Part shown: in pieces, positions 4,028-23,562 of the stretch
How the letters are laid out: each line of letters starts with the position of its first letter
How positions within the stretch are numbered: the stretch's first letter is position 1
Assembly (NCBI GenBank): GCA_947457935.1
Contig: CANGXP010000001.1
Coordinates: forward strand, 4,065-68,064
Length of the DNA: 64,000 bases
DNA from: Alphaproteobacteria bacterium
GTDB taxonomy: Bacteria; Pseudomonadota; Alphaproteobacteria; JAJTHO01; CANGXP01
Reading direction: 5' to 3'
Notes under the pieces: model-generated
What the model saw: only the letters and a program-made list of their open reading frames with translations
Told to the model about the DNA's origin: nothing
The model's database searches: none
Program-made: the position numbers and the translations under genes

Positions 4028-4083
4028 TGCCCTATAAAATGTTGATTGCCAAAACTCCCATTCTATATCTACACAGGTGTTAG

Positions 4084-4098
4084 TTAATAGAGTGTTAA
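4084..4098. promoter_or_regulatory. CtrA-type binding site TTAA-N7-TTAA in the divergent kinase/cobS promoter region
   Basis: Sequence TTAA TAGAGTG TTAA, exact consensus spacing. Confidence 0.55.
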
Positions 4099-4108
4099 GG
4101 ATTATAGC

Positions 4109-6767: not shown

Positions 6768-6880
6768 GTGTTCGGTATTCGGTTTTAAGAATGCGCCAAA
6801 ATGTTGATTTTTCTTGTTTCCTCTGCCATTGTATCAGTGCCTATACTCTTTCCAAAACCTAAAACCGAACACCTAAAACC
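6760..6880. repeat. Inverted-repeat element with arms of four tandem 7-mers (GGTTTTA/GGTGTTC type)
   Basis: GGTTTTAGGTGTTCGG (6760-6775) is the exact reverse complement of CCGAACACCTAAAACC (6865-6880); the left arm contains the cobT stop codon. Confidence 0.8.
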
Positions 6881-6885
6881 TTCTT

Positions 6886-7761
6886 ATGACAACCCACGCT
6901 CACAACACCCTCAACAAACGCGCAGTGATTTTCTCCATCGGGGTATCGCTGTTTCTGGTGCTGATTAAGGCATTCGCTTGGTTTGAGACGGATTCACTGA
7001 GTTTATTGTCTTCTCTACTCGATTCAAGCCTTGATGTGGTTGTCTCTTCGCTCAATCTTCTTGCGGTGCTCTATGCGGCCAAGCCTGAGGATGATGATCA
7101 TCGTTTTGGACACAACTCCATTGAGGATATTACAGGACTCGTGCAAGCAACCTTTATTGCCGCATCGGGGATTTTTCTGATTTATGAGGCGGCGCACCGT
7201 TTTTTAGACCCACAGCCCCTTCTTGCCGCCACAACGGGGATTATCATTCTCAGTATCTCAATGCTGTGTACACTGTCGATTGTGCTGTATCAACGCTATG
7301 TGCGCCTGAAGACAAAATCAGTGGTGGTGGAAGCAGACTCCCTGCATTACATGAGTGATTTCCTTGTGAATGGCGCTGTGATTATTGCCATGATTATTGC
7401 CGCCAATCCCGCATGGTCGTTTGTTGACCCTGCCCTTGCTATTCTTGTTGCCCTGTATATTCTCTATTCTGCAAGTCAAATAGGGCTTAAATCCTACAAT
7501 AACTTGATGGACAGAGAAATGGCGGATGACGAGCGCAATCAGATTATTGCGCTGCTAGAGCAAAACACGGATATTTTGGACTATCATGCCCTAAAAACAA
7601 GGCGATCAGGCAGCAGAGCCTTTGTGCAAGTGCACCTTGATTTAGACAATACTTTAAGTTTTCAAGCTGCTCACGATATTTCAGAGAACGTGGAACACAG
7701 CATTCAAGCATTATTTCCGTTGGCGGATATTATTGTGCATATGGATCCGCGCAAAGTATGA
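6886..7761 (+). CDS. fieF: Cation diffusion facilitator (FieF-like) metal efflux transporter
   Basis: SLLDSSLD, DDDHRFGH, ADSLHYMSD, C-terminal HLDLD...AHDI...IIVHMDP; six TM helices. Confidence 0.88.
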   Translation: MTTHAHNTLNKRAVIFSIGVSLFLVLIKAFAWFETDSLSLLSSLLDSSLDVVVSSLNLLAVLYAAKPEDDDHRFGHNSIEDITGLVQATFIAASGIFLIYEAAHRFLDPQPLLAATTGIIILSISMLCTLSIVLYQRYVRLKTKSVVVEADSLHYMSDFLVNGAVIIAMIIAANPAWSFVDPALAILVALYILYSASQIGLKSYNNLMDREMADDERNQIIALLEQNTDILDYHALKTRRSGSRAFVQVHLDLDNTLSFQAAHDISENVEHSIQALFPLADIIVHMDPRKV

Positions 7762-7764
7762 TGC

Positions 7765-10700
7765 TTACGCCACATCCCTTGCCGCCTTCACCCCTGCCAA
7801 TCCTTTGACTTTTTGCCGTGTTGTCATGCTGAGCGCATAGCGTTGCGGGAGGGTAATGGTAACAAGATGCCCTGTTGCACTGGGGAGTTTCAGCAACACT
7901 TGCGCATTACCGCGTGGTTCTTGTTTAAGAATATCGTGCAACACCGCCAATGTTTTTTTCTCATTAATAGTGAGTTCCAAGCCTAAGCCCACGTCTGCGG
8001 CGACACCATCCAGCGGGCGAATCATCTGGGCAAGCAAGCGATAGCCCTCCCCCTCTTCCGTTGCATCCACCGAGACAAGCAGCGGCACGTTTTGTTCCAA
8101 TAACTCGCGGGATGCTGCCAGCACCTCGCTAAACATCATCACCTCAAACACACCACTGGTATCAGAAAACTGCACAAAGGCAAAACGGTTACCTTTGGCG
8201 GATTTTCGCTCTTTTTTCGCCGTCACAATTCCTGCCATGGTGAGGCGTTGCGCGCCTTTGCTACTCACGATTTCCGCCACATCCTTTGCCAACGTCACCT
8301 TCATTTTATCAAGGGCGAGTTGGTAGCTATCCATCGGGTGGGCAGAGAGATACAACCCCAACGCCGTAAACTCATTGCCTAATTTCTCGAGTGGCGACCA
8401 TTCAGGATGCTCAATAAATTTTGGCGCAACGGCAGGGGCTAGTGACGTTATACCGAACAGGCTTTCCTGCCCGCTGTCATCATCCGCCTTGCTGCTAACG
8501 CCACTCGCCACCGCTGTTTCAATGTTGGCAAACACCGCCGCGCGACTTTGATGCAAGCTATCAAACGCGCCCGCATAGCACATATTTTCTAAGAAACGTT
8601 TATTAAGCCCGCGCCCTGCAAGGCGTTTGGTGAAATCATAGAGTCCTGTATACGCCACATTTTTCTCCCGTTCTGTGACGAGCTCTAACACAGGGGCTTC
8701 ACCAATGCCTTTAATGGCGGTGAGGGCGTAACGGAGGGCTTTGCCGTCATTTTCCACCGCAAAATAGCGTTTTGAGGTGTTCACATCGGGCGGCAACACG
8801 CTTAAATTCATGCGCAGGGCTTCTTGGCGGAACAGCCCTAATTTATCGGTGTTACCTAATTCGTAGGTCATGGTAGCGGCGAGGAATTCTGCAGGGTAAT
8901 TCGCCTTCAACCACGCGGTTTGGTAGGCAATAAGGGCATACGCTGCCGCGTGTGACTTGTTGAAACCATAGCCCGCAAATTTCGCCACCTGATCAAAAAT
9001 GAAACTAGCGGTATTTTTCTCCACGCCCTTGGCGGTTGATCCCTCAACAAACAAGGCGCGTTGTGCGTCCATTTCTTCTTTGATTTTCTTCCCCATCGCA
9101 CGGCGCAATAAATCTGCCGCGCCTAAGCTATACCCTGCTAAGACTTGCGCAATTTGCATCACCTGTTCTTGGTAAATCATCACCCCAAAGGTTTCCTGCA
9201 AAATAGGTTGCAAGGTAGGATGCAGGTAATCAGGTTGTTCTAACTCATGCTTACAAGCAATATAGCGCGGAATATTATCCATAGGGCCGGGGCGATAGAG
9301 TGCCACCAACGCGATAATATCTGCAAAACGGTCAGGTTTCAGCTTGCGCAGCACATCGCGCATCCCCGCGCTCTCAAGTTGGAACACACCCATCGTCTCG
9401 CCACTACTTAACAGCGCGTAGGTTTTTTTGTCATCCATGGGAAGACTGAGGAGGTCAACGTCAACCCCACATCGCTCTTTAATCAGCGCGCACGCCTTTT
9501 GCATGACGGTAAGTGTTTTTAAGCCCAAAAAGTCAAACTTCACCAACCCTGCTGTTTCCGCATATTTCATGTTAAATTGCGTGGCGGGCATGGTTGAACG
9601 CACATCGCGATAGAGCGGCACGAGTTGTTCAAGCGGGCGATCCCCAATCACCACCCCTGCGGCGTGGGTCGAAGCATGACGATATAAGCCCTCTAACTGG
9701 AGACTTATATCTATCAGGGAAGATGTTTCTTCCTCCTGTTGAATAGCGCGGAGTTGCGGTTCAAAGTCTATGGCTTCCTGTAGCGTCATGGGGTTGGCAG
9801 GGTTATTCGGCACGAGTTTACAAATTCTATCCACCTGCCCATATGGGAGTTCTAACACCCGCCCTACATCACGCAACACAGCGCGTGCCTGCAACTTTCC
9901 AAAGGTGATAATTTGCGCAACTTTATCTGCGCCGTATTTTTGCTGAACGTAAGAAATCACCTCATCCCGCCTATCTTGGCAAAAATCGATATCAAAGTCA
10001 GGCATGGAAACCCGTTCGGGGTTTAAGAATCGCTCAAACAGCAAATTTAATTCCAAGGGATCAAGATCGGTAATGCTTAGCACCCATGCAACGACCGATC
10101 CCGCCCCCGATCCCCTTCCCGGTCCCACAGGAATACCCTGTTGTTTCGACCAGCCAATAAAATCCGCTACAATCAGGAAATAGCCCGCAAAGCCCATGCT
10201 GATAATGGTATTGAGTTCGTATTCTAGGCGTTGTTGATACGGCGCTACGTCTATTTCTCTATTGAGGGTTTTATAGTGCGCCAAGCGTTTTTCTAAGCCT
10301 TGGTAGGCTTGGGTTTTAAGGCTTTCTGCTTCATCTTCGCTAAAACGCGGCAAAATAGGCTTCCGCGCCTCTGGCATGAAGGCACAGCGTTGCGCGAGGT
10401 GTACCGTATTGTCGAGAGCTTCGGGAATATCGGCAAATAGCTTTTGTAATTCAGCGGGATGCTTAAAATAATGCTGTGGGTTAGACTGGCGGCGAGCGGG
10501 ATTAGAGACTGTGGTACTATCACCAATGCCGAGCAAAATATCATGCGCCCCGTGCAATTCTTTTTCTAAAAAGAACACGTCTTGGGCGGCAAGAAGCGGC
10601 AGGTTCAGCGTGTGCGCGGACTCCAATAACGCGCCTTCATTGGCGACCTCTGCGGCGGAATCTTGCCGCGCAATCTCGATATACAGCCGTTCGGGGAATA

Positions 10701-11187
10701 ATTCTTGGAGGGTTTTTATGTGAGTGAACGCTCGCTCATTTTGCCCTAGTGTAAGAATTCTGCCTGTTGTGGTTGTCAGACTGCCCGTTGCGGCAAGCAA
10801 CCCCTCTGTGTTGCTTCGCAGTTGCTCTAGGGTGATGTGCGGCGTCTCCGCTGGATCCCGCGTGATATACGACTGGCTTAACAGCTTGGAAAGATTTAAG
10901 TACCCCGTTTCATTTTGCACATAGACAAACAACTGCGGCAGATGCTCGCCCGCTTTAACAGGGATATCAGGTGTTTGAATATTCAGCGCACAACCGATAA
11001 TCGGCTGAATACCTGCTTTTGCGGCGTTTGAGGCAAATTCTAACGCGCCAAACAAATTATGATGATCGGTCACCGCCACCGCAGGCACGCCCATTTCTTG
11101 GCATTTGCCTAACAAATCATAGAGCCGCACCGTGCTTTCAGCGAGCGAATAGGCAGAGCGGACTTTGAGGGGGATGAAAGAAGGCAC
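7765..11187 (-). CDS. dnaE: DNA polymerase III alpha subunit
   Basis: PHP domain (VRSAYSL, TDHHNLFG), PGRGSGAGS, MPDFDIDF, KFDFLGLKTLT, GYGFNKSHAAAY; likely start GTG at 11187 (ORF track starts at TTG 11244). Confidence 0.97.
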   Translation of the reverse strand: MPSFIPLKVRSAYSLAESTVRLYDLLGKCQEMGVPAVAVTDHHNLFGALEFASNAAKAGIQPIIGCALNIQTPDIPVKAGEHLPQLFVYVQNETGYLNLSKLLSQSYITRDPAETPHITLEQLRSNTEGLLAATGSLTTTTGRILTLGQNERAFTHIKTLQELFPERLYIEIARQDSAAEVANEGALLESAHTLNLPLLAAQDVFFLEKELHGAHDILLGIGDSTTVSNPARRQSNPQHYFKHPAELQKLFADIPEALDNTVHLAQRCAFMPEARKPILPRFSEDEAESLKTQAYQGLEKRLAHYKTLNREIDVAPYQQRLEYELNTIISMGFAGYFLIVADFIGWSKQQGIPVGPGRGSGAGSVVAWVLSITDLDPLELNLLFERFLNPERVSMPDFDIDFCQDRRDEVISYVQQKYGADKVAQIITFGKLQARAVLRDVGRVLELPYGQVDRICKLVPNNPANPMTLQEAIDFEPQLRAIQQEEETSSLIDISLQLEGLYRHASTHAAGVVIGDRPLEQLVPLYRDVRSTMPATQFNMKYAETAGLVKFDFLGLKTLTVMQKACALIKERCGVDVDLLSLPMDDKKTYALLSSGETMGVFQLESAGMRDVLRKLKPDRFADIIALVALYRPGPMDNIPRYIACKHELEQPDYLHPTLQPILQETFGVMIYQEQVMQIAQVLAGYSLGAADLLRRAMGKKIKEEMDAQRALFVEGSTAKGVEKNTASFIFDQVAKFAGYGFNKSHAAAYALIAYQTAWLKANYPAEFLAATMTYELGNTDKLGLFRQEALRMNLSVLPPDVNTSKRYFAVENDGKALRYALTAIKGIGEAPVLELVTEREKNVAYTGLYDFTKRLAGRGLNKRFLENMCYAGAFDSLHQSRAAVFANIETAVASGVSSKADDDSGQESLFGITSLAPAVAPKFIEHPEWSPLEKLGNEFTALGLYLSAHPMDSYQLALDKMKVTLAKDVAEIVSSKGAQRLTMAGIVTAKKERKSAKGNRFAFVQFSDTSGVFEVMMFSEVLAASRELLEQNVPLLVSVDATEEGEGYRLLAQMIRPLDGVAADVGLGLELTINEKKTLAVLHDILKQEPRGNAQVLLKLPSATGHLVTITLPQRYALSMTTRQKVKGLAGVKAARDVA

Positions 11188-11300
11188 GAGGGAAGAGTCG
11201 CGAGGCACGAGGAACAAGAGCCTTATACGTAGCGGAACAAACAATAGCCTACAAGACTAAATTTTTCCCCTCGTGCCTCGTGCCTCCCTACTCGTGCCTC
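11181..11300. repeat. Inverted-repeat element built from AGGCACG/CGTGCCT heptamers between lolD and dnaE
   Basis: AGGCACGAG copies at 11182 and 11203; CTCGTGCCT copies at 11270, 11277 and 11291; the arms overlap the lolD stop and the dnaE start. Confidence 0.8.
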
Positions 11301-11968
11301 AAAACCCCTTTACTCAAACTGTACGTCCTGTCCATTTGTGCGGCTAATGCATGGTTATGCGTGGCGATGAGGGCGGCAACGCCGTGTTCACGCGCTTGAG
11401 AGAGTAATTCTGCAAAGACAATCGCCGATGTTTCGGGGTCGAGATTCCCTGTGGGTTCATCGGCAAGCAACAATTTGGGGCGATTGGCGAGCGCACGGGC
11501 AATCGCCACGCGCTGCTGTTCGCCGCCTGAGAGTTGGCTCGGGCGATGGTGTGCCCGATTCTCTAAATTAAACTGTGAGAGCAGTGAGAGTGAGCGCTCA
11601 CTCGCTATTTTTTTATCAACACCTGCAATGAGTTGCGGGAGCATGACGTTCTCTGCAGCGGTAAAATCGCGCAACAAATGGTGAAATTGATAGATAAAAC
11701 CGATATGCGTATTACGCACCTGTGCCTGCTGCGTGACAGAAAGTGCCGTGCAATCACGCTCCATAATGGTAATGTGTCCTTTGAGTGGCGCGTCCAGCAA
11801 TCCTGCGATGTGCAGTAGCGTGGACTTGCCAGTGCCTGATGCACCAATCAGCCCCACCACTTGCCCTGCTTCGAGTTGCAGCGTCACGTCTTCTAGCACG
11901 TTCAAGCGTTGCCCCGCTTGGGTATAGTGATGATGAATAGTATTCAGAGATAACACTGTATCAGACAT
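11288..11968 (-). CDS. lolD: Lipoprotein-releasing ABC transporter ATP-binding protein
   Basis: GASGTGKS Walker [37 protein letters not shown]; downstream of lolC/E. Confidence 0.93.
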
Positions 11969-13208
11969 ACCGTAATGCCTCCACAGGGTTGATTTTTGAG
12001 GCTTTGAGAGAAGGGTAGAGGGTTGCCAGCAAGGATAATACGAGGCTCATGCTCACCACCCACCCTACTTGCCCCCAATCAAGGGCAGTGGGCAGCTTTG
12101 TTAAAAAATACACATCGCTGGGGAATAATCGCTGTTGGAAAATTTTTTCCAAAAACCCGCGAATATTTTCAAGATTTTCTGTCACCAGCAAGCCCAAGAC
12201 AAAGCCACTCAACGTTCCCACCACGCCTATTCGCATGCCACACAACACAAAAATACGCAAGATACTGCGTGGCGGCAGCCCGAGGGTCTGCAAAATCGCG
12301 ATGTCCATGGTTTTGTTTTTCACCAGCATCACCAAACTGGAAATAATGTTAAATGCCGCAACCATGATAATCAGGCTGAGGATTATAAACATCACATTGC
12401 GTTCCACCTCAACCGCGCTGAAAAAGCTACTGTTGGCTTGTCGCCAATCGCGCAATAATACAGCGCGGTTCAGCGTGGCATTAAGGGTTTTTGTGGTGTC
12501 TGCAACCGCATCCACATCATCAAGTTGCAGAGATAAGCTATCCACATTTCCTTTGGGGAGGCGAAAAAACACTTCTGCCAACGGTTGCGGCATAAAAATA
12601 AACCGCGCATCATATTCATACATCCCCACCGAAAAAATGTTGATAATGCGATAGTCCTTAAGGCGCGGCAGTGTGCCGAATCCTGTTTGCGTAAAGTTAG
12701 GCGCAACCAGCGTGAGCGTATCCCCAATCCGCAAATTAAGGCTTTCCGCCATCTTATCGCCGATGATAATCCCATCAGCATCGCTAAACGGTTGCGTATT
12801 TTTGTCCTCTAAAGAAGCAAATACTTTCGGGTGGGCTTTGAGGCTCTCTAAGCTCACGCCGCGCACCATTACGCCTAAAGCCTTTTCTCCCCGCAGAATC
12901 ATCGCTTGCCGCTCAATTTGCGGAATTACGCTTATAACATGGGGAAGCTTCTGAAGTGTGGGCAATAGGTCATCGTAATCCGCCAGCGTGCCTTCCACGG
13001 AATATACACTCACATGCCCATTCAGGCCGAAGATTTGCTTCATCAACTCCGCACGAAAGCCATTCATCACCGACATAACAACAATCAACGTCGCAACGCC
13101 TAAAGCAATCCCCACAAGAGAAAACCCCGCGATAACAGACAAAAACCCGTCGTTATTACGGGGTTTTAAGAAGCGTTTGGCTATAAGGCGTTCGGTGGCA
13201 CTAATCAT
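11961..13208 (-). CDS. lolC: Lipoprotein-releasing ABC transporter permease LolC/E
   Basis: [52 protein letters not shown]. Confidence 0.93.
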   Translation of the reverse strand: MISATERLIAKRFLKPRNNDGFLSVIAGFSLVGIALGVATLIVVMSVMNGFRAELMKQIFGLNGHVSVYSVEGTLADYDDLLPTLQKLPHVISVIPQIERQAMILRGEKALGVMVRGVSLESLKAHPKVFASLEDKNTQPFSDADGIIIGDKMAESLNLRIGDTLTLVAPNFTQTGFGTLPRLKDYRIINIFSVGMYEYDARFIFMPQPLAEVFFRLPKGNVDSLSLQLDDVDAVADTTKTLNATLNRAVLLRDWRQANSSFFSAVEVERNVMFIILSLIIMVAAFNIISSLVMLVKNKTMDIAILQTLGLPPRSILRIFVLCGMRIGVVGTLSGFVLGLLVTENLENIRGFLEKIFQQRLFPSDVYFLTKLPTALDWGQVGWVVSMSLVLSLLATLYPSLKASKINPVEALRYV

Positions 13209-15257: not shown

Positions 15258-17297
15258 TTATTCCGCCGCCGTGGCACTCACCTGCTTCATCGCGTCTTTG
15301 ATGCGTTTTTTCTGCTCATTTTGCTGATGCTCTTCAATCCGTTTTTGCCGCATAAATTCTGGCATTGTTGGCGCAGGCGGATATTTACCCACACCGCCCC
15401 GTGCAGGATCTGGCGCAACAAGATATTTCAATTTTTTATGTTTAAAAAATGCGGGTGTGTCGCACAAAATTGGCTTATTCATATGGCTTTGCATCAACAC
15501 ATAGTGCTTGCCAGGTTCAATAGACATAAAGTCTTCAGGGCGAATGAGCGGCTGCCCCTGCATAGAACGCTGCATGTTCACCGCAAAGGGGTTTGTTTGC
15601 TTTGATAAACCAATGGTACGGCTTTTTGATTTTGTCTCCAGCGTCCGTTGCCCCACCATCTCTGAAAACCGCTTGGCTGTCACCTCGTTGTTCAACGTGA
15701 GTACCACTTTTGCCGCTGTGGTGGAAATAACCGTCTCGGTTTCATCCTTGCCATACTTTGACTGAATTTGCCCTAAATCCTGCCCAATCATCAGATAACT
15801 CACCCGCTGCCCCCGTCCTACGGCTGGTCCATCAAGCAAGGCTTGGAGTTTTGGCATTTGCGGAAACTCATCGAGGACAAAAATCGCATCACAAGGGCCT
15901 ACCTTTTGCCCATCGCGTGTTGTTGCCCCCGGTTTGTGTGCAACCAGCCATGCTGACAATGCTTCTACCAGCAATCCTGTAATTTTACCCAAAGCGCGAG
16001 CATCTTCTTGATTTACGCAAAGATACAACGATAACGGCTTCATCTCCCCCGTTGTGGGGTCTGTAATCCCGCGCACGTCCATAAACGAGAAATCACTTTT
16101 CTCCGTACGCGCCCGAATCGCGCTATTTTTAAAGACAATAAGTCCGCCATCTAAGCTGGACAAAATAGAGCCACGCTCTTTATCAGGTGTTTGTGCTAAC
16201 TGCGTAAATTCGTTCACCGCTCGCCCTGAATAGCCATATTCTCGCGCTTCTTTCACGGCATCCATGAGAAAATCTTTCACCACGTCGGCTGTCATGGCCG
16301 CCATGGGATTACTTTTTTTCAACGCTTCCACTTTATCGGCCGCGCTTAACAACCCTTCCGTCATCCAATCAATAAGCATCGGGATAGAGGCTTCACACCC
16401 CACCCACTCCTCTGGAATGCCCTTGTAATTGCCACTTTCACATTTCGCGACAATGTAATGCATAAAGCCCGCCATCGCCGCACGACCTTTTTTCGTCCAG
16501 TGCGGATCCGCCTGTCCTGTTGGCTCTTCAATAATAACGTTGGTGAGACGATCAATATACAAATCGCGGTTAGGCCCCATAGGCGGCATACACAGTGGCG
16601 ATAGCGGATTCCAACGGGGATAAAAAATGCCTTTTTCAGGGTCATCTTGCGCCGCCCACTCCAGTTTTAAACACACGCTGTGCAAAGAGCGATAGCCACT
16701 TGTGAGGTCAAACAACTCAGGCTTCACATCATTTACGATAATCGAGGCTTTATCACAGGTGAGAATGGTGGGCACAACAATCGCCACCGTTTTCCCTGTT
16801 CCAGGTGGCGCAACGCACAGCACAGAAAGCGTCTCACTTAATTGTAATAGTTTATTCCGCCATTCACCCAATACAATAATATTCCCAAACAGCTTCATTT
16901 TAACGACATCATCGTTGCGAGACAACCGCGCCGAGCCAAACATTGTTTCCTGCAGACTGTATGGATTTTTAACAAGCATGACAAATAGTAGTGCTGCACC
17001 CCCGAAAAAAGCAGTGACTATTTCTACTGGCACCCCCCCCAAACGCCAATCAACGGGCATATTAGGATTGCTATTGGCAATCCAATATTCATGGAATGCA
17101 AAAAAATCGCTAGGATTAATTAGTTTAAGCCAATATTCCCCCACAGCGTTTACAATCGGCGCACTCACGCCGTAACGCACAAACGTGAAAATAGATGTAA
17201 GTAGCAGCAACAAAAGAAAAAAAGTGAGAACGCCAAACACTATAGATTTTACAATCCATATCTTGGCTAAGCCTGATTCTCCAAGATCACTTTTCAT
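15258..17297 (-). CDS. virD4: Type IV secretion coupling protein VirD4/TraG
   Basis: Two N-terminal TM segments, VAPPGTGKT Walker A, VNDVKPEL, FVLDEFPQMPKL Walker B, QDLGQI..KYG. Confidence 0.93.
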   Translation of the reverse strand: MKSDLGESGLAKIWIVKSIVFGVLTFFLLLLLLTSIFTFVRYGVSAPIVNAVGEYWLKLINPSDFFAFHEYWIANSNPNMPVDWRLGGVPVEIVTAFFGGAALLFVMLVKNPYSLQETMFGSARLSRNDDVVKMKLFGNIIVLGEWRNKLLQLSETLSVLCVAPPGTGKTVAIVVPTILTCDKASIIVNDVKPELFDLTSGYRSLHSVCLKLEWAAQDDPEKGIFYPRWNPLSPLCMPPMGPNRDLYIDRLTNVIIEEPTGQADPHWTKKGRAAMAGFMHYIVAKCESGNYKGIPEEWVGCEASIPMLIDWMTEGLLSAADKVEALKKSNPMAAMTADVVKDFLMDAVKEAREYGYSGRAVNEFTQLAQTPDKERGSILSSLDGGLIVFKNSAIRARTEKSDFSFMDVRGITDPTTGEMKPLSLYLCVNQEDARALGKITGLLVEALSAWLVAHKPGATTRDGQKVGPCDAIFVLDEFPQMPKLQALLDGPAVGRGQRVSYLMIGQDLGQIQSKYGKDETETVISTTAAKVVLTLNNEVTAKRFSEMVGQRTLETKSKSRTIGLSKQTNPFAVNMQRSMQGQPLIRPEDFMSIEPGKHYVLMQSHMNKPILCDTPAFFKHKKLKYLVAPDPARGGVGKYPPAPTMPEFMRQKRIEEHQQNEQKKRIKDAMKQVSATAAE

Positions 17298-17308
17298 AAC
17301 TCTCTTCC

Positions 17309-18376
17309 TTACACAGAAGCAGAAACAGGGTTGCTTGCCTGTGTCTTTGCTTCTGATCGTATTGTTTTTTCGATGATATTCGGCGCATCTACTGCACTAA
17401 TTACACGCTGTCCAGAGCTTCTATCAATCTGTACAATTCGCCCAAAAGAGCGAGAGAGGATCTCAATCACAGCATCCGCATCCAAATTCGGGTTTTCCTG
17501 TGTTAAATTTTGCCAAAATGCACGCAAAGCCATCTCAGGGCTTTCTGCGTGAATAGTTGCCATAAAGTTTGAATGCCCCGTTGTCATCAAACGGTAAATA
17601 CTTTTTGAGTTGGTGACAGAAATTTCCCCGCAAATGATAATATCAGGTGTCATTCGCACCACGGAATCGAGAACGTGCGAATACGTCATTTTATTTGTGC
17701 CTGCTGTTCTTGAGACAACAAGATGCACGCGGTTCGCGTGAGGCACAATCACCTCCCGTGTATCTTCCACGGTAATAATACGCCGATCCCTTGGAATAAA
17801 TTCCACCAAGGCGTTCAGGAATGTTGTTTTCCCCGTTGATGTTGCCCCTGAAATTAGAACTGCCTCGCCGTTACTAATTGCACCAATCAAATCCTCATAA
17901 ACGTAGTCACTATAACGATGTTTATCTAACCCGCGATGCGCATCAAGCTCTTCTCGCTTGACTTCTTTAGTAAGCCTAAAATCATCCAAGACGAATTTTT
18001 TATCCGCATTAAAACGACGAATACACAAAGCCATCCCATGCGTATCGCCCATCTCGTAGCGCACATTAGGGCCAATAACTGCTTGGAAACGATGCCCCCC
18101 TGGTAAGGTAGCGGATAAAATCGGCAGTTGATTCACATCAAAATCTTGGTCTGTCACGTTCGCTAACATCCGACAAAGCGAAAAAATCCCGCGAATACTT
18201 ACCTCTGGAGCTGTTTGTGTAACCCAACCTTTCCCTATGTACTTAATACAAATTTCTTCAGGGCGATTAATCGATATTTCTTCGACATCTTTGTTTTCGT
18301 AATACACCTTGAGGGGTTTGAGCGCATTAAGCAGCAACTCATTTGACATGGTTGTGGTTTTAAACACGTCGCTCAT
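17309..18376 (-). CDS. virB11: Type IV secretion ATPase VirB11
   Basis: EISINRP, PILSATLPGGHRFQAV, SGATSTGKTTFLNAL, ITVEDTRE, RMTPDIIICGE. Confidence 0.9.
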   Translation of the reverse strand: MSDVFKTTTMSNELLLNALKPLKVYYENKDVEEISINRPEEICIKYIGKGWVTQTAPEVSIRGIFSLCRMLANVTDQDFDVNQLPILSATLPGGHRFQAVIGPNVRYEMGDTHGMALCIRRFNADKKFVLDDFRLTKEVKREELDAHRGLDKHRYSDYVYEDLIGAISNGEAVLISGATSTGKTTFLNALVEFIPRDRRIITVEDTREVIVPHANRVHLVVSRTAGTNKMTYSHVLDSVVRMTPDIIICGEISVTNSKSIYRLMTTGHSNFMATIHAESPEMALRAFWQNLTQENPNLDADAVIEILSRSFGRIVQIDRSSGQRVISAVDAPNIIEKTIRSEAKTQASNPVSASV

Positions 18377-18380
18377 ACTA

Positions 18381-19973
18381 TTATTTCCCTACAGTAGGCG
18401 GCGGCCCATAGTTAAACTGCGAACTGCCTTGCACAGGTGCAAACGCTTGGTTCGTTGGTGCACCTGCCGCTTCATTTTTTGTTCCCAGTTGCGCCGCATT
18501 ACCCAAAACTTCTGCTAGTTTTTGTGTTCCTGTGCCTAAATCGCCGCGTTGCAGTGCAAAGACTAATTGTCTTGCTTTTTCTAACGTTTCATTTGTTGCT
18601 GCAGAAGACGTGAGCAAGGTTGGCGTTTTCATCACCAAGTCTTGCGTCGGTGTTAGCAAAAAGCGCGTGCCACTGGGGATAGTGAGAATGGGTGTGGTGT
18701 CCACATAATCATTCAACAAGCGTTTAGCCTGAGAGGCAAATTCTTGCGCCAAATCCCGTCCTGCTTTTTGACCCGGCGTAAGCGTTTCTGAGGTTGTTGT
18801 GCCAGAACTCCCGCCACTATTGACGCCGCTAAAAGTCGTCGTCGTAGAATCCTTATTCGACAAGGCATACTCTAAACCAATGCCGATAGACGCAACCAAT
18901 AAAGGCGCAACATATCGATTGAACAACCGATAGTCTATGTAACCCACCATTCCATTGCGTCCCATGGGGTCACTTGCAGGCGATTGCACGGTAATATTAA
19001 CACCATCGGGACGAATAATCCGTGTCCATACAGCATCTAAACGTGACCGTCCTGTACGGCCTAAGCTTTGCGATGTGCCAATTAATCGTGATCCTGCGGG
19101 GATAAGAATATTCCGACCAGACGCACTGTAGACGTGATTCTCCACAATAGCCGTCATGCGACCACCACCAATTTGGGTGTTAATGGTGCTTTCTAAAACT
19201 GCAGGAATATATCTATCTGAGGTAATCATGCGATCCCGATTAACAGGATACGATGAAACTATCGGATCATACCCATAGGAGGCGTAGTCCTCATCGCTCA
19301 TTTTCCAACCTGCATTAACCCGATCTCCCGTTTGCAGTACCTGTAACGTGCCTGTTTTTCGCTGTTCTTGCAAGCGTTGGGCATTAATATACTCAAACGA
19401 AGGCGTGTACGGGATCACCTGTTCTGGCACTTGCAATGGCGGCGGCGGTGCATCTACTAACGCTTCACCAACGCCTGAAATTTGGACAAGTAAAGGGCTA
19501 TTTTTTGCACTGTGCGTTACAATAATCGTTGTTTGGTATGCACGCGGTTCTTGCGGGCGAAATGTCACATCAATGCGACAACTAGTTTTGTTGGGCCCCA
19601 TAATAAGCCCATCAGCACATGCCCCCCCTAGAGTAAACACGCTTTGTTCACTTGCCAGCTGCACTTGTTGAATGGTAAGTGGCTCATCCCCTTCTACGTT
19701 TAAGATAACGGGCAGCGTAAGCTCTCCACCAACTTTAACTCCTGAAAAAGTAAGCGTACTAGTAAGCGTTGCCAATGATGAAGGCAACGTGGGTTTTACT
19801 TCTTGCTTGTTGACCACATCAAGCAAATCGCGCACGGGATCTGCTGATTTTGGCGGCGGGGGAGCCTCTTTCTCACCACAACTCGCTAAGAATAAGCACA
19901 AAACCAAACACAGCGCGACAACAGCCTTATTGCGCTTCGTATTTAATGGACGCGATGCTATCTCGTAAAACAT
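18381..19973 (-). CDS. virB10: VirB10/TrbI-family protein with an N-terminal lipoprotein signal and an Ig-like (ASH/choice-of-anchor-D-like) domain
   Basis: C-terminal TrbI domain (IPAVLESTINT, IPAGSRLIG, WTRIIRPDG, DPMGRNGMVGYID, PILTIPSGT); lipobox FLASC at Cys32; beta-sandwich TLTFSGVKVG...CRIDVTFRP...VQISGVG. Confidence 0.85.
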   Translation of the reverse strand: MFYEIASRPLNTKRNKAVVALCLVLCLFLASCGEKEAPPPPKSADPVRDLLDVVNKQEVKPTLPSSLATLTSTLTFSGVKVGGELTLPVILNVEGDEPLTIQQVQLASEQSVFTLGGACADGLIMGPNKTSCRIDVTFRPQEPRAYQTTIIVTHSAKNSPLLVQISGVGEALVDAPPPPLQVPEQVIPYTPSFEYINAQRLQEQRKTGTLQVLQTGDRVNAGWKMSDEDYASYGYDPIVSSYPVNRDRMITSDRYIPAVLESTINTQIGGGRMTAIVENHVYSASGRNILIPAGSRLIGTSQSLGRTGRSRLDAVWTRIIRPDGVNITVQSPASDPMGRNGMVGYIDYRLFNRYVAPLLVASIGIGLEYALSNKDSTTTTFSGVNSGGSSGTTTSETLTPGQKAGRDLAQEFASQAKRLLNDYVDTTPILTIPSGTRFLLTPTQDLVMKTPTLLTSSAATNETLEKARQLVFALQRGDLGTGTQKLAEVLGNAAQLGTKNEAAGAPTNQAFAPVQGSSQFNYGPPPTVGK

Positions 19974-20033: not shown

Positions 20034-21281
20034 TTATAGTGTAGGCGTATTGAAACGAATTAATCGTGGTTTTAACAAAAGCATGTACGCGGCAGGATCC
20101 TCTGAATATGAAAGACCATATAACAATAATGGATTTTCAACCGTATGAGAGAAACTCAGAGAGACACTGTTTTTTGGTGTCATCCCCTTCGTATCGCACG
20201 ATGCTTTATTTGGATTTTGCATTGTCATGAAAAGATTTGTTGCCACGTCCACGTCCTGCGGCGTGCTCTGTGCTGTAACCGTTATAAGTCCCAAGGGGCC
20301 TGTGTCCGTAGGTGATTTACAATACGGCACCTTCGGCACATCACCCATAGAAAAGGTCAGCGGGGAAGCAGTCATCATCGTCACAATACCTGCGTCAATT
20401 TTGGTTACACTCATACCGTAGGGCGCGAAAACACTACGAAAATCCTCATTTGCTAACGCCCCTTGAAATACCCCCACACCAGAATTTGGGTCATGCGCTA
20501 TTTTTTCTAACCCCATCAAGCGCCAATCCAGCGGTTTGGTAGGCGGCATATCAAACCGCCACAATACAGCTTGATAGGCTACAACCATCTTTTCGGCTCG
20601 CAATTGTTGTAAATAGCTCTTTACGGTCGAGATACTGCCCCGCGTCAGCTGAAAAGACATCACCCGCGTAGACGCGTCAAACTCAATTTTTTTTGCACCC
20701 AAACTCTGTACTGTATTGATGATGCTTTCATAGGGGGCTTTAAGAATGTCAGGCGTTTTAGAGGATCTATTATTCCCTCCCATGTACCCCAAGGGCGGCA
20801 TAATGACGTTATACGTCTCAACACTTTCAATTTGTAAAACGCCTTGGTTCAAACGATATACAAATGCGCCTTCAGCACTAAGTTGCTCTAAGGCTGTTGC
20901 AAAATCACGCGGTAAGGACACTGCACTAAGTTTTTTATCCTGTACCGTATCAGAAATATACAATCTATACGGCACGTTCTGCATCAGCCGCAACAACACG
21001 TCTGAAAGATAGGCATCTTTTAGTGTTATGGGCGGGATAGTGGTATTGGGCAGCGGCTCTGAAACATATGCGGCCTGTAGCGCAAAAAAATTCTTTGTTG
21101 CAAGGCTGGCACGCTCTGCAATCGGCGGTATGAATTTTTTCTTATCAAAAAGCATGTCACGCGATTTTTCACTGCTTACCGCTGCTGTAACGGGTGCTTT
21201 TGTATCAACAGAAACGACCTTACAGCCCGTTATCGCAAGGATACAACAGAGTAATCCTATTTTGTGAAATCGCATCATCAT
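20034..21281 (-). CDS. Secretin-like outer-membrane lipoprotein (PilN/BfpB-like N-terminal domains, shortened C-terminus)
   Basis: Lipobox AITGC at Cys20; ITLKDAYLSDVL...FATALEQL...YRLNQGVLQI resembles a secretin N0/STN domain; VVAYQAVLWRF...LDW resembles the start of a secretin core; by-eye recognition only. Confidence 0.55.
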   Translation of the reverse strand: MMMRFHKIGLLCCILAITGCKVVSVDTKAPVTAAVSSEKSRDMLFDKKKFIPPIAERASLATKNFFALQAAYVSEPLPNTTIPPITLKDAYLSDVLLRLMQNVPYRLYISDTVQDKKLSAVSLPRDFATALEQLSAEGAFVYRLNQGVLQIESVETYNVIMPPLGYMGGNNRSSKTPDILKAPYESIINTVQSLGAKKIEFDASTRVMSFQLTRGSISTVKSYLQQLRAEKMVVAYQAVLWRFDMPPTKPLDWRLMGLEKIAHDPNSGVGVFQGALANEDFRSVFAPYGMSVTKIDAGIVTMMTASPLTFSMGDVPKVPYCKSPTDTGPLGLITVTAQSTPQDVDVATNLFMTMQNPNKASCDTKGMTPKNSVSLSFSHTVENPLLLYGLSYSEDPAAYMLLLKPRLIRFNTPTL

Positions 21282-21322: not shown

Positions 21323-22630
21323 CTACCGCCCAATCAAAGGTTCTTGAACGGGCACAGGCGTTGTTGGCACCGATGCACCAGCGCTCGTACTTACAGGCGC
21401 TGAACGGATTTGTGACGGTAACGATGGTGCAATAGAGCCTTTTGGCTTGTCTTCAAACAAATATAAATCATCATCGTTTGTAATCTTATTCCCTGTCACA
21501 CCCACGGGTGTTGAAGAGTACACACACACCACACGCGAACCGTTACGCAGGGTAAAGTTGCCAATTGCTTCAGCAATAAAAATATTCCCTGTTGACCCTG
21601 CAGTGCGTGTATTCACCATGGTGTCAACCCCATCAACCACACGGCTAATAACAGGCCTCCGCACGGTATCTGCCTTATCGCCATAATCAAAATATGTCCA
21701 AATACCATCCGTAAACACACGCAACGGCGCAATTTCAATATCTTCAGGTGTTGGCGCAAAAATCTTCAAATCAAAACGGAGATTCTCAGGACTAAATGCA
21801 ATTTTGCGAATGTAGTCAGGCGGTGTCACAATATTACTCGGCGTTGCCGCAGCACCAGACATCCCCGCATCTGTTGAAGACGGATTGGGTTGCGCATTAC
21901 CACCAAGTGGGTTTTGCGCGGCACTGCCTGCAGCAACATACACTGTAAAGTCTGTAATTTGCGTTGAATTCCACCCCTCAGAACGTACATAAAAGTTATA
22001 AATATTTCCCGATGTCCCAATAATAGTCATATTGGTATCAGCCCCTGAGTGACTCGGGCGCACAACCAAGATATTTTGCTTTACGCGTGTGGCTTCAAAC
22101 ACCATCGTATCGCCGAGAATAATCCGCTCCACGTTTTCCCACGCTGGTAGCTCAATGGTTGTGGTCATAAATTCGCGGGTACGAATCGGCATAACAAAAT
22201 CAGGTCGCCACACAAAACGCATAATACCAGGTGCCGTCTGCCCTGTGGAAGCAATCGGACTATCCCATTTTTTTTGCAATGCCCCAACAGGCAACGTTGA
22301 GCTACGTGTCATGGTGGGGAATTGACCTGATGCTTGACTATTAATATCTTGCTCTGTTCTAGCCGCCAACGGACTAGGCCCCGAAGAAGGAGCAGAGAAT
22401 TGTTGCGCTGGATCATTGAAATTTGGCACAGGGGCGGCACCGAATCCTTGGCTTGCTCCCGTCGCAGGATTGCCTAATGGGGGACGAATTTGTGCAACAG
22501 CAGTGTGTGAGAGAATACTGCACACAAGAAATCCGCTCAAAGAAATAAGGGCGGATTGTTTTTTAAGAGAACAAATGTTTTTCATAAAGATATCGCTCTT
22601 TTTGTGATTAATATTTTTAGTTTTGGGCAA
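21323..22630 (-). CDS. virB9: Type IV secretion outer-membrane core protein VirB9/TrbG
   Basis: Signal peptide, IRTREFMTTTIEL, ILGD, TNMTIIGTSGNIYNFYV, PLRVFTDGIWTYFDY, TLRNGSRVVCV. Confidence 0.88.
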   Translation of the reverse strand: MPKTKNINHKKSDIFMKNICSLKKQSALISLSGFLVCSILSHTAVAQIRPPLGNPATGASQGFGAAPVPNFNDPAQQFSAPSSGPSPLAARTEQDINSQASGQFPTMTRSSTLPVGALQKKWDSPIASTGQTAPGIMRFVWRPDFVMPIRTREFMTTTIELPAWENVERIILGDTMVFEATRVKQNILVVRPSHSGADTNMTIIGTSGNIYNFYVRSEGWNSTQITDFTVYVAAGSAAQNPLGGNAQPNPSSTDAGMSGAAATPSNIVTPPDYIRKIAFSPENLRFDLKIFAPTPEDIEIAPLRVFTDGIWTYFDYGDKADTVRRPVISRVVDGVDTMVNTRTAGSTGNIFIAEAIGNFTLRNGSRVVCVYSSTPVGVTGNKITNDDDLYLFEDKPKGSIAPSLPSQIRSAPVSTSAGASVPTTPVPVQEPLIGR

Positions 22631-23369
22631 TGCTGTAGTCCAACACTGTAAAGCCTAAAGGGTTAAAATATTGTTCTGCCAGTGCAACATTTCGGGCGAC
22701 ATAATCAACACGTAGTTGCGCCCTCCATTTTCCTTTTAACAAAACATTCCCCAGCCTATCTGTGTCAGTCGTTACATATTCTACCTCAACGTAGTTTTGG
22801 CTTTTGCTCACCGTGCTTGTAATGTCTACACTACGGCTAATGCCTTTTTGCTGCAGCTCTTGATATGGCTGATTAATCGACATCAAAAACGTATTATACT
22901 CCGCTTCAGGCATACGATATTTCAGATACTCAACCCAGCGGCGTTGTTGATCTGTTTGATCCAAAATAATTTCTTCCCGAACCTTTACATATTCACCTGC
23001 CATTTTCTCTGTGAACAGTTGAATCCCTGCTTGCCCTTTAATAAAAGGCTGAATTTGTACTATTTGCTCGTTTTTATCGTTGAATGTCACTAGCATCGGC
23101 TCAATTTTTTTGAGCGGTACCAAGGCATATACCGTCAACACCAAAACAATATTCAGCAACATGCTCATGTAAAACGCGACCGCAAACACACGCGTTGTCC
23201 ACAAATATCGACGCCCCTCCAGCACAGGAATACGCACATCTTTGGGGTACGCGCCTAGCGTATCTTTATGATCGCCATTAGAAGCAGACTTTAACAAAGG
23301 ATCAATCCCCTCTTGCGGTGCAACGGGTCTGAAATATCCTTTAAGCTTTTGTCCTAGGTTCTCACTCAT
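22617..23369 (-). CDS. virB8: Type IV secretion inner-membrane protein VirB8
   Basis: Single TM followed by LVPLKKIEPMLV, EYVKVRE, and C-terminal NPLGFTVLDY. Confidence 0.88.
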   Translation of the reverse strand: MSENLGQKLKGYFRPVAPQEGIDPLLKSASNGDHKDTLGAYPKDVRIPVLEGRRYLWTTRVFAVAFYMSMLLNIVLVLTVYALVPLKKIEPMLVTFNDKNEQIVQIQPFIKGQAGIQLFTEKMAGEYVKVREEIILDQTDQQRRWVEYLKYRMPEAEYNTFLMSINQPYQELQQKGISRSVDITSTVSKSQNYVEVEYVTTDTDRLGNVLLKGKWRAQLRVDYVARNVALAEQYFNPLGFTVLDYSIAQN

Positions 23370-23370
23370 A

Positions 23371-23562
23371 TTATGATTGCTTCTGCCATCCGTTATAATT
23401 TTGCGGTACTTCTAAGCACGCACAAGGACTCCGTTTTAAATCATCATTGTCGCGTCCAATCCCCACAGGGTCGGGCAATGTTTCGCTGCCACGGACAAAA
23501 TCACATCCAGATACAAGCAACAACGCTGCTACGCCGCACCAGAGATATTTTTTGTTTTTCAT
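23371..23562 (-). CDS. virB7: Small lipoprotein, VirB7-like
   Basis: 63 aa, lipobox LVSGC at Cys20, KRSPCAC motif, position immediately upstream of virB8. Confidence 0.7.
   Translation of the reverse strand: MKNKKYLWCGVAALLLVSGCDFVRGSETLPDPVGIGRDNDDLKRSPCACLEVPQNYNGWQKQS

What the first reader, a model, noticed from the sequence alone, without database searches (positions are those of the whole stretch)
18381..19973. VirB10 re-engineered as a lipoprotein with an Ig-like domain
Seen: basic n-region, short h-region and lipobox FLAS-C32, then a ~100-aa beta-sandwich with two Cys resembling ASH/choice-of-anchor-D domains (about 19460-19770), a Pro-rich linker and a normal TrbI domain. Established: canonical VirB10 is a bitopic inner-membrane protein bridging both membranes. 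A cleaved lipid anchor would remove the cytoplasmic tail and change how energy is coupled to the outer-membrane channel; the Ig domain could add a periplasmic ring or adhesin (inference).
Basis: partly seen in the sequence, partly recalled or inferred. Interest (0 to 1): 0.75.

Follow-up and report, generated by a model that had tools for sequence, protein, structure and literature searches.

The report
Lipid-anchored VirB10 with Ig domain
In one group of Alphaproteobacteria, the type IV secretion protein VirB10, which normally starts in the cytoplasm and crosses the inner membrane, has a lipoprotein signal in place of that membrane helix and carries an extra folded Ig-like domain, so it offers a natural test of whether the helix and cytoplasmic tail are needed.

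Summary
ORF 18381-19973 (-) encodes a 530-aa VirB10 that lies between virB9 and virB11.

- **Domains:** It has a lipoprotein signal (L29-A30-S31-C32), an Ig-like beta-sandwich of the ASH/PapD/HYDIN type (residues 63-172, pLDDT about 90, two invariant Cys) and a TrbI barrel with antenna (250-447).
- **Conservation:** The lipobox Cys is invariant in 67 relatives down to about 25% identity. These are Alphaproteobacteria MAGs plus cultured Telmatospirillum siberiense.
- **Rarity:** Among the 113 VirB10 genes that could be classified, out of 120 drawn evenly from the phylum, 112 have the classical membrane helix. The single lipobox gene belongs to this same clade.
- **Cleavage site:** Sequence constraint changes sharply at Cys32. 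Identity to a close relative is 32% before it and 83-96% after it.
- **Likely membrane:** Position +2 is only Gly or Asp in 47 of 49 sequence contexts, which matches inner-membrane retention signals. In the relatives' genomes, outer-membrane NodT lipoproteins never have Asp or Gly there (0 of 25), and all three lipidated RND adaptors have Asp.

My best reading is that this VirB10 is tethered by lipid to the outer leaflet of the inner membrane. It would still span the periplasm but would lack the cytoplasmic and membrane-embedded contacts seen in R388. Lipidation and localisation have not been tested biochemically. I found no published description of this architecture. I rate it a new variant of a known kind.

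The parts
18381..19973 (-). virB10 gene, 530 aa (P0001). It is the only TrbI-family gene in the 1.83-Mb genome.
19881..19973 (-). Predicted SPase II signal peptide, residues 1-31: n-region with R8, K13, R14 and K16, then an uncharged h-region from A17 to S31.
   Evidence: Identity to the L001 orthologue is 32% and dN/dS is 0.27, against 87% and 0.035 just after the Cys.
19878..19889 (-). Lipobox L29-A30-S31-C32. Cys32 is the predicted lipidated first residue of the mature protein, followed by G33-E34-K35.
   Evidence: C32 is invariant in 35 of 35 aligned relatives. Lipobox statistics from 49 distinct contexts are. LspA and Lgt genes are present in the genome.
19788..19877 (-). Tether, residues 33-62: GEKEAPPPPK, then a conserved short helix at 46-56 (DPVRDLLDVVNK; L50 is conserved in at least 90% of relatives).
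19458..19787 (-). Ig-like beta-sandwich of the ASH/PapD-like/HYDIN-VesB type, residues 63-172. C119 and C132 are invariant and probably form a disulfide.
   Evidence: Pfam and NCBIfam hits. AF2 pLDDT 86.5 and pTM 0.72. Foldseek matches to HYDIN 2e6j, CEP192 6fvi/7ptb and VesB 4lk4. Invariant Cys pair.
19227..19457 (-). Second linker, residues 173-249: PPPP at 176-179 and a conserved helix at 193-207 with invariant R205.
18633..19226 (-). TrbI/VirB10 C-terminal beta-barrel domain, residues 250-447.
   Evidence: Pfam PF03743 at E 2.6e-39. Foldseek match to TrwE/VirB10 CTD 8rt6_A at E 7e-15.
18708..18929 (-). Antenna projection inside the barrel: helices 349-371 and 400-422, with a Thr/Ser/Gly-rich beta-hairpin (376-398) at the tip.
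   Evidence: The tip has pLDDT 50-70, so the hairpin is tentative.
18384..18632 (-). Clade-specific C-terminal extension, residues 448-530: two predicted helices (462-475 and 479-502), the motif ALQRGD, and a terminal YGPP motif.
   Evidence: 96% identity and dN/dS 0.026 against L001
23371..23562 (-). Context: a 63-aa VirB7-like lipoprotein (LVSGC|DFVRG). Orthologues in related genomes mostly have Ser at +2.
21323..23369 (-). Context: virB8 (22617-23369) and virB9 (21323-22630).
20034..21281 (-). Context: a 415-aa lipoprotein between virB9 and virB10 with no Pfam or NCBIfam match. A gene occupies this position in the near clade.
15258..18376 (-). Context: virB11 (17309-18376) and virD4 (15258-17297). 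The order virB10-virB11-virD4 is conserved in the related loci that extend far enough, in both subclades.

Best explanation
[quoted passage not shown] Its classical N-terminus, a cytoplasmic tail plus an inner-membrane helix, has been replaced by a lipoprotein signal peptide.

The following steps are inferred from sequence. After Sec export, Lgt, LspA and Lnt would produce a mature protein that begins at acylated Cys32. The residues after the Cys are Gly-Glu here and Asp-Asn or Asp-Asp in the sister subclade. These are of the inner-membrane-retention type, so the lipid most likely stays in the outer leaflet of the inner membrane.

From the anchor the chain would run as follows:
- a PPPP tether;
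- a conserved short helix;
- a disulfide-bonded ASH/PapD-like Ig domain;
- a second PPPP linker and helix;
- an ordinary VirB10 barrel whose two-helix antenna forms the outer-membrane pore together with VirB9 and VirB7.

On this reading the protein still bridges both membranes, much as the lipid-anchored RND adaptors AcrA and MexA do. It cannot make the cytoplasmic contact with the ATPase complex or the in-membrane contact with VirB6 that classical VirB10 makes. Any coupling to the inner-membrane machine must therefore go through periplasmic contacts. The conserved helix at 46-56 and the Ig domain are the candidates (inference). About 14 copies of the Ig domain could form an extra periplasmic ring (inference).
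For: - **VirB10 identity:** TrbI at E 2.6e-39. The fold matches TrwE, Xanthomonas VirB10, CagY and TraF C-terminal domains at E 7e-15 to 1e-10. The gene order is virB8-virB9-x-virB10-virB11-virD4. It is the only TrbI gene in the genome.
- **Lipoprotein signal:** The lipobox matches the PROSITE-type pattern. C32 is invariant. In 49 distinct contexts, position -3 is L or V and position -1 is A, G or S in every case. LspA and Lgt are present. Identity to the L001 orthologue is 32% before the Cys and 87% after it, with dN/dS 0.27 against 0.035.
- **Clade restriction:** 35 of 40 Ig-bearing relatives match the strict lipobox pattern; the other five are N-truncated or near misses. Only 1 of 79 classical hits matches, and that Cys sits inside a membrane helix. 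In an even sample of the phylum, 112 genes are helix-type, 1 has a lipobox (same clade) and 7 could not be classified. On the TrbI tree the trait needs only one change.
- **Inner-membrane retention:** Position +2 is G in 27 contexts, D in 20, S in 1 and P in 1. Position +3 is mostly D, K, N or E. In genomes of the sister subclade and two near-clade genomes, 25 NodT outer-membrane lipoproteins have S, T, A, V or N at +2 and none has D or G. The three lipidated RND adaptors, all from Telmatospirillum, read C-D-D, C-D-E and C-D-Q. VirB7-like orthologues in the same operons have S at +2. PMC5727369 summarises the known rules: Asp at +2 with D, E, Q or N at +3 in E. coli, and Gly at +2 with Asp or Glu at +3 in P. 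aeruginosa inner-membrane lipoproteins.
- **Length of the spanning segment:** The distance from anchor to barrel is 213 aa, or 103 aa without the Ig domain. In classical VirB10 the median is 154 aa.
- **Ig domain:**
- **Purifying selection:** All mature parts have dN/dS of 0.025-0.06.
Against:
- Lipoprotein sorting rules are not established for Alphaproteobacteria.
- In this genome the VirB7-like lipoprotein has Asp at +2 and an LptE-like ORF has Gly at +2, so the +2 residue alone is not decisive.
- All RND adaptors found in the window's own genome and the other near-clade genomes are helix-anchored or carry no lipobox. The Gly-Glu signal therefore has no comparator within its own subclade.
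- The adaptor evidence for Asp at +2 rests on only three proteins.
- dS is saturated, so the dN/dS values are approximate.
- The functions proposed for the Ig domain and the helix are inference only.
- The branch joining the two subclades is weakly supported (SH-aLRT 49).
Confidence: 0.62

Rival explanations
1. The protein is a lipoprotein, but the Lol system sends it to the outer membrane. [quoted passage not shown] This T4SS would have no VirB10 link to the inner membrane at all.
For: - The outer membrane is the default destination for proteobacterial lipoproteins.
- Sorting rules are unproven in Alphaproteobacteria.
- Gly at +2 also occurs in an LptE-like ORF of this genome, and Asp at +2 occurs in its VirB7-like protein.
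- The operon already shows an unusual build-up of lipoproteins around virB9 and virB10.
- There is a precedent for a T4SS lipoprotein with an extra globular domain (PMC3093366, listed).
Against: - Position +2 is restricted to G or D in 47 of 49 contexts.
- Bona fide outer-membrane NodT lipoproteins in relatives' genomes never use D or G there (0 of 25).
- VirB7-like orthologues use Ser.
- The lipidated RND adaptors, which must act at the inner membrane, use Asp at +2.
- The chain between anchor and barrel keeps a length typical of periplasm-spanning VirB10 linkers.
Confidence: 0.25
2. The N-terminal hydrophobic segment is not cleaved and acts as a short signal-anchor. The protein would then be an ordinary bitopic VirB10 with a very short cytoplasmic tail, and the Cys would be conserved for some other reason.
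For: AF2 draws residues 12-30 as a helix. No signal-peptide predictor or experiment was available.
Against: - Only about 13-15 uncharged residues precede the Cys, and the following sequence is GEKEAPPPP. Classical helices are 17-24 residues long.
- All four lipobox positions are conserved, while the rest of the segment is free to vary.
- The pre-Cys region is only 32% identical between orthologues that are 88% identical overall.
Confidence: 0.06
3. The Ig domain is exposed at the cell surface and works as an adhesin of the secretion machine.
For: Relatives of this domain are very common as tandem repeats in giant proteins with up to 61 copies. I know many proteins of this type to be surface proteins, but this was not checked here.
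Against: - The domain lies N-terminal to the barrel, between the lipid anchor and the periplasmic face of the outer-membrane complex.
- In VirB10, only the antenna tip reaches the surface.
- The conserved Cys pair fits a periplasmic disulfide.
- No surface-export signal was seen.
Confidence: 0.03

Closest known systems
Classical VirB10/TrbI proteins: A. tumefaciens VirB10, R388 TrwE, pKM101 TraF, Xanthomonas citri VirB10
   Same: - The C-terminal TrbI beta-barrel with a two-helix antenna.
- Pro-rich stretches in the N-terminal half.
- The gene position between virB9 and virB11-virD4.
   Different: - There is no cytoplasmic tail and no membrane helix. In R388 these are residues 21-42, which bind the ATPase complex, and residues 43-69, which bind VirB6 helices (PMC11294453). 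Here a lipobox takes their place.
- The N-terminal half contains a folded Ig domain. The R388 paper says VirB10 has only one folded domain.
- An extra C-terminal tail of about 85 aa is present.
- The NCBIfam VirB10 models all score below their cut-offs (132 bits against 220).
Expanded VirB10 homologues: H. pylori CagY and Legionella DotG
   Same: Each is a VirB10 barrel preceded by lineage-specific extra periplasmic parts. The barrel here matches CagY (6x6k, 6odi) and DotG (7muq) by fold.
   Different: From what I know, CagY and DotG keep an inner-membrane helix, and their additions are repeats rather than a single Ig domain. Here the anchor itself has changed.
VirB7 lipoproteins, including Xanthomonas VirB7 with its N0 domain (PMC3093366)
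   Same: A T4SS core subunit anchored by a lipobox Cys. In Xanthomonas it also carries an extra globular domain that forms an additional ring.
   Different: VirB7 is a small outer-membrane lipoprotein and is not the pore or bridging subunit. This operon has its own VirB7-like gene (23371-23562), whose orthologues mostly carry Ser at +2.
Lipid-anchored periplasmic adaptor proteins of RND pumps: AcrA and MexA
   Same: This is a likeness in working principle only. Both are periplasm-spanning connectors held at the inner membrane by an N-terminal lipid, with Asp (or Gly-Lys/Asp/Glu) after the Cys and a Pro-rich tether. The adaptor family also has both helix-anchored and lipid-anchored members. The lipidated adaptors in Telmatospirillum genomes read C-D-D, C-D-E and C-D-Q.
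   Different: There is no sequence or fold relationship. The N-terminal sequences of AcrA and MexA are from my memory and were not checked here.
ASH / PapD-like / HYDIN-VesB Ig-like domains and choice-of-anchor D domains
   Same: Residues 63-172 have the same fold. Foldseek gives TM-scores of 0.6-0.78 to HYDIN 2e6j, CEP192 and VesB, and Pfam PF22544 scores above its cut-off.
   Different: The domain is a single copy inside a secretion-system subunit. None of the listed fold matches is a T4SS component. NF012200 scores below its cut-off.

Membership tests
VirB10/TrbI family (Pfam PF03743) | C-terminal TrbI beta-barrel domain | tested here: met
   PF03743 scores 135.5 bits against a cut-off of 35, over residues 250-447. 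Foldseek matches 8rt6_A, 7o3j_A and 6gyb_C at E about 1e-14.
VirB10/TrbI family (Pfam PF03743) | Two-helix antenna projection for the outer-membrane pore | tested here: met
   The AF2 model has helices 349-371 and 400-422 protruding from the barrel. This is a model only.
VirB10/TrbI family (Pfam PF03743) | Encoded in a T4SS operon next to virB9 and virB11/virD4 | tested here: met
Classical bitopic VirB10 (NCBIfam NF038091 / PRK13855 equivalogs) | N-terminal cytoplasmic tail plus one inner-membrane helix | tested here: not met
   There is no hydrophobic stretch of 17 or more residues. The h-region ends at lipobox Cys32. In the phylum sample, 112 of the 113 VirB10 genes that could be classified have such a helix.
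Classical bitopic VirB10 (NCBIfam NF038091 / PRK13855 equivalogs) | Score above the curated equivalog cut-off | tested here: not met
   NF038091 scores 132.2 bits against 220. PRK13855 scores 50.5 bits against 374.
Bacterial lipoproteins (SPase II substrates) | Lipobox [LVI]-[ASTVI]-[GAS]-C at the end of a short h-region, with Cys within residues 15-35 and a basic n-region | tested here: met
   L-A-S-C32 with R8, K13, R14 and K16. The stricter PROSITE rule of a K or R within the first 7 residues is missed by one position (R8).
Bacterial lipoproteins (SPase II substrates) | Conservation of the lipobox Cys in homologues | tested here: met
   Invariant in 35 of 35 aligned relatives. Present in all 27 loci that include the N-terminus. 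Present in 67 of the 69 sequences examined; one of the other two is N-truncated and the other was mis-extracted.
Bacterial lipoproteins (SPase II substrates) | The host encodes Lgt and LspA | tested here: met
   PF01790 at E 1.6e-74 and PF01252 at E 7.2e-38 in the window's own genome. Lnt was not searched for.
Bacterial lipoproteins (SPase II substrates) | Actual acylation and globomycin-sensitive cleavage | not testable with these tools
   This needs labelling, mass spectrometry or globomycin experiments.
ASH/PapD-like Ig domains (PF22544, PF15780; NCBIfam choice-of-anchor D NF012200) | Profile match above the cut-off | tested here: inconclusive
   PF22544 scores 27.1 against 25.5, so it is met, but barely. 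PF22073 scores 29.2 against 35.5 and NF012200 scores 24.4 against 45, so neither is met. The T. siberiense orthologue passes PF15780 ASH (41.6 against 27) and PF22544 (32.2).
ASH/PapD-like Ig domains (PF22544, PF15780; NCBIfam choice-of-anchor D NF012200) | Seven- to eight-strand Ig-like sandwich of the PapD/MSP type | tested here: met
   AF2 pLDDT 86.5. Foldseek matches 2e6j (TM 0.78 normalised to the target), 6fvi, 7ptb, 4lk4 and 1m1s.

The most novel reading that the evidence does not exclude
This clade shows that a working VirB/VirD4 machine does not need VirB10 to cross the inner membrane or to touch the cytoplasmic ATPases and the VirB6 helices. The ATP-sensing role and the pilus-checkpoint role assigned to those segments would then be done by a different route. 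That route would be a periplasmic relay through a ring of Ig domains and the conserved helix next to the lipid anchor. In the more extreme version, the anchor is in the outer membrane and no protein bridges the two membranes at all.
Probability: 0.3. Interest if true: 0.8.

Novelty: new variant of a known kind. Interest (0 to 1): 0.6.

Why it matters
VirB10 is described as the one T4SS subunit that physically links the inner-membrane complex to the outer-membrane complex (review PMC12857230). Its N-terminus is central to two current models:
- sensing of ATP use by VirD4 and VirB11;
- in the R388 structure, blocking the pilin-recruitment site on VirB6 (PMC11294453).

A whole clade has replaced exactly those segments with a lipid anchor while keeping the rest of the protein under strong purifying selection. 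That makes it a natural deletion experiment. It can show which VirB10 functions need the membrane and cytoplasmic parts and which need only a tether.

One member of the clade is in a cultured, non-pathogenic bacterium, Telmatospirillum siberiense 26-4b1, so the question can be addressed experimentally. The case also adds a folded Ig domain to a region thought to be unstructured. Finally, it parallels the lipid-anchored and helix-anchored variants of tripartite-pump adaptors.

Tried and rejected
1. **Profile search with the N-domain.** A search of 1.84 billion representative proteins was meant to count VirB10 proteins carrying this domain. It returned 75,378 hits dominated by giant multi-repeat proteins. 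This shows only that the domain belongs to a very large Ig-like repeat superfamily.

2. **Co-loss of VirB6.** I asked whether the loss of the VirB10 helix goes with loss of VirB6. It does not. Divergent TrbL/VirB6-like genes lie elsewhere in this genome (contigs C53 and C37) and in relatives' genomes.

3. **Sorting rule from the window's own genome.** My crude lipoprotein list is noisy. It shows that position +2 is mostly A, S or T but has no clear inner-membrane comparators. Both RND adaptors in this genome are helix-anchored. The sorting argument therefore rests on the sister subclade's genomes and on published rules.

4. **Literature searches.** Searches for a lipoprotein VirB10, or for VirB10 with an Ig-like domain, found nothing relevant.

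5. **Statement from memory not verified.** I recalled that Gly, Phe, Trp, Tyr and Pro at +2 retain lipoproteins in E. coli (Seydel 1999). I could not verify this in the papers held, so I did not use it.

Full report
**What is there**

The ORF at 18381-19973 on the minus strand encodes a 530-aa protein, P0001. It lies in a VirB/VirD4 operon with this order:
- virB4
- two unassigned ORFs
- a 63-aa VirB7-like lipoprotein
- virB8
- virB9
- a 415-aa lipoprotein with no family match
- this gene
- virB11
- virD4

. The gene has one plausible start, an ATG preceded by AGGAATAGGG. It is the only TrbI-family gene in the 1.83-Mb, 99.6%-complete genome.

**Domain anatomy**

- **Barrel:** Pfam finds TrbI at 250-447 (E 2.6e-39).
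- **Ig domain by profile:** Ig-like families match at 67-169. HYDIN/VesB-like scores 27.1 bits, just above its cut-off. Cep192_D4 and choice-of-anchor D score below theirs.
- **Full-length model:** AlphaFold2 with a 35-sequence family alignment gives a helix at 12-30, a short helix at 46-56, and an eight-strand sandwich at 63-172 with pLDDT about 90. It also gives a helix at 193-207, a barrel at 250-447 with antenna helices 349-371 and 400-422, and two C-terminal helices at 462-502.
- **N-domain model:** The N-domain modelled alone has pLDDT 86.5 and pTM 0.72.
- **Fold matches for the barrel:** Foldseek matches it to R388 TrwE (8rt6_A, E 7e-15), Xanthomonas VirB10, CagY, TraF, ComB10 and DotG.
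- **Fold matches for the sandwich:** It matches ASH/PapD-like domains of HYDIN, CEP192, ciliary central-pair proteins and the VesB/VesC Ig domains. None of the listed matches is a T4SS component.

**The lipoprotein signal**

The N-terminus is MFYEIASRPLNTKRNK / AVVALCLVLCLF / LAS / C32 / GEKEAPPPP.

In an alignment of 35 relatives, with 88% down to 25% identity, C32 is invariant. So are C119 and C132 of the Ig domain. All 27 related loci from GTDB representative genomes that include the N-terminus carry a lipobox Cys. Pooling 67 sequences gives 49 distinct contexts. In these, position -3 is always L or V, position -1 is always A, G or S, and the Cys is always present.

The strict PROSITE-type pattern hits 35 of 40 Ig-bearing relatives. 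The other five are N-truncated or near misses. It hits only 1 of 79 classical VirB10 proteins from the same search, and in that one the Cys lies inside a membrane helix.

LspA and Lgt are encoded in the genome.

I compared the gene with its 88%-identical orthologue in L001. Residues 1-31 are 32% identical, with dN/dS 0.27. From Cys32 onward, every segment is 83-96% identical, with dN/dS 0.025-0.06 (dS is saturated, so the ratios are rough). A constraint boundary exactly at the Cys is what a cleaved signal peptide should show.

**How unusual it is**

I searched PF03743 in 401 genomes drawn evenly from the phylum and fetched 120 of the matching genes. Of these:
- 112 have a hydrophobic helix upstream of the barrel;
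- 1 has a lipobox, and it belongs to this same family and order (G016);
- 7 could not be classified, because of a wrong frame or truncation.

A maximum-likelihood tree of the barrel domains needs only one change of the trait. Both subclades are well supported (SH-aLRT 95-96), but the branch joining them is weak (49).

The clade consists of freshwater and peat Alphaproteobacteria MAGs. These include Lake Mendota bins, Holosporales-labelled bins, Rhodospirillales and Telmatospirillum. It also includes one cultured strain, Telmatospirillum siberiense 26-4b1. That orthologue begins LLVAGC|DNPPP and passes the Pfam ASH cut-off.

In the near subclade the gene order virB8-virB9-x-virB10-virB11-virD4 is conserved. 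In the far subclade only virB10-virB11-virD4 stay together.

A third clade-specific feature is a C-terminal extension. Its median length is 87.5 aa, against 11 aa in classical proteins.

**Which membrane?**

This is the main open point.

1. The residue after the Cys is Gly in 27 contexts and Asp in 20, out of 49. It is followed mostly by D, K, N or E.
2. Published rules, summarised in PMC5727369, are these. In E. coli, Asp at +2 causes inner-membrane retention, and this is strongest with D, E, Q or N at +3. In P. aeruginosa, inner-membrane lipoproteins have Gly at +2 followed by Asp or Glu, or have Lys3-Ser4.
3. These rules are not established for Alphaproteobacteria, so I looked for comparators in the relatives' own genomes.
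4. Twenty-five NodT-family outer-membrane-factor lipoproteins have S, T, A, V or N at +2. None has D or G.
5. The three RND adaptors that are lipoproteins, all from Telmatospirillum genomes, read C-D-D, C-D-E and C-D-Q.
6. VirB7-like orthologues in the same operons have Ser at +2 in eight loci and Glu in one.
7. The distance from anchor to barrel is 213 aa, or 103 aa without the Ig domain. This is in the range of classical VirB10 linkers, whose median is 154 aa.

These points favour retention in the outer leaflet of the inner membrane. I put that at about 0.7, given that the protein is a lipoprotein.

There are caveats:
- This genome's own VirB7-like protein has Asp at +2.
- An LptE-like ORF has Gly at +2.
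- Both of this genome's RND adaptors are helix-anchored, and no lipidated adaptor was found in any near-clade genome.

The Gly-Glu signal of this particular protein is therefore judged by analogy only.

**Mechanistic reading**

In the R388 structure (PMC11294453), VirB10 residues 21-42 contact the cytoplasmic ATPase complex. Residues 43-69 cross the membrane alongside two VirB6 helices and block the pilin-recruitment site. That paper also says VirB10 has only one folded domain, the C-terminal one. A 2025 review calls VirB10 the only subunit that bridges the inner- and outer-membrane complexes (PMC12857230).

The protein here has neither the cytoplasmic segment nor the membrane segment, and it has a second folded domain. 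TrbL/VirB6-like genes still exist elsewhere in the genome, so the change is not simply a co-loss with VirB6.

I propose that the lipid keeps the N-terminus at the inner membrane, as in lipid-anchored pump adaptors. I further propose that the conserved helix at 46-56 and the Ig domain make the periplasmic contacts that remain. Both proposals are inference.

**Novelty**

Full-text searches for a lipoprotein VirB10, or for an Ig-like domain in VirB10, found nothing.

Earlier notes of this scan had already flagged related alphaproteobacterial T4SS islets with unusual lipoproteins. I treated these as leads, not as evidence.

The protein fails the defining 'bitopic' feature of classical VirB10 and scores below the NCBIfam equivalog cut-offs. 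It is nonetheless clearly a member of the TrbI family. I therefore rate it a new variant of a known kind.

Noticed in passing
window 18384-18632 (-), residues 448-530: The clade has a C-terminal extension after the VirB10 barrel, with median length 87.5 aa against 11 aa in classical VirB10. It has two predicted helices. In the near subclade it also has the motif A-L-Q-R-G-D/E and a C-terminal F/Y-G-P-P motif. It is 96% identical to L001, with dN/dS 0.026. Its function is unknown.
   Followed up: partly
window 23371-23562 (-): A 63-aa VirB7-like lipoprotein (LVSGC|DFVRG) carries a conserved PDPVGIG...LKRSPCAC.EVPQ core. Orthologues in eight related loci have Ser at +2 and one has Glu, but this genome has Asp.
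   Followed up: partly
window 20034-21281 (-): A 415-aa lipoprotein (AITGC|KVV) between virB9 and virB10 has no Pfam or NCBIfam match. It is 64% identical in L001 and only 24-29% identical in L007, L008 and L010. Other near-clade loci have a gap of about 1.3-1.5 kb at this position. Earlier scan notes call it a cut-down secretin, which I did not test.
   Followed up: no
own genome G000: C53:5051-5857 (+), C53:2187-2462 (+), C37:9389-9820 (+): Three divergent TrbL/VirB6-like open frames of 433, 1269 and 666 aa lie far from the virB operon. Only the first exceeds the Pfam cut-off. This resembles the scattered VirB6 paralogues of the Rickettsiales rvh system.
   Followed up: no
window 18786-18854 (-), residues 374-396 (antenna tip): The loop between the two antenna helices is Thr/Ser/Gly-rich (TTTTFSGVNSGGSSGTTTSETL). 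It is modelled as a beta-hairpin with pLDDT 50-70. This would be the surface-exposed tip of the pore.
   Followed up: no
proteins P0040, P0044, P0049: These are TrbI-domain proteins of 668-796 aa. Their precomputed Pfam lists include PF21784, PF12396 and PF21785, and one also has RHS repeat PF05593. This is another unusual VirB10 architecture, and none has an obvious membrane helix in the first 120 residues.
   Followed up: no
L021 (Telmatospirillum siberiense NZ_PIUM01000001) 1-12544: In the far subclade, virB10-virB11-virD4 form a separate islet. The upstream genes are unrelated: a FemAB-like gene, two EamA-family transporter ORFs and a two-component system. The rest of the T4SS must lie elsewhere.
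   Followed up: partly
L115 (G275:C18, a 0.9-Mb genome): This VirB10 has an open frame of 358 aa and only a weak N-terminal hydrophobic segment (MLMAGITLGGHC|LPPSNN). It has neither a clear membrane helix nor a canonical lipobox, so it may be another reduced anchor.
   Followed up: no
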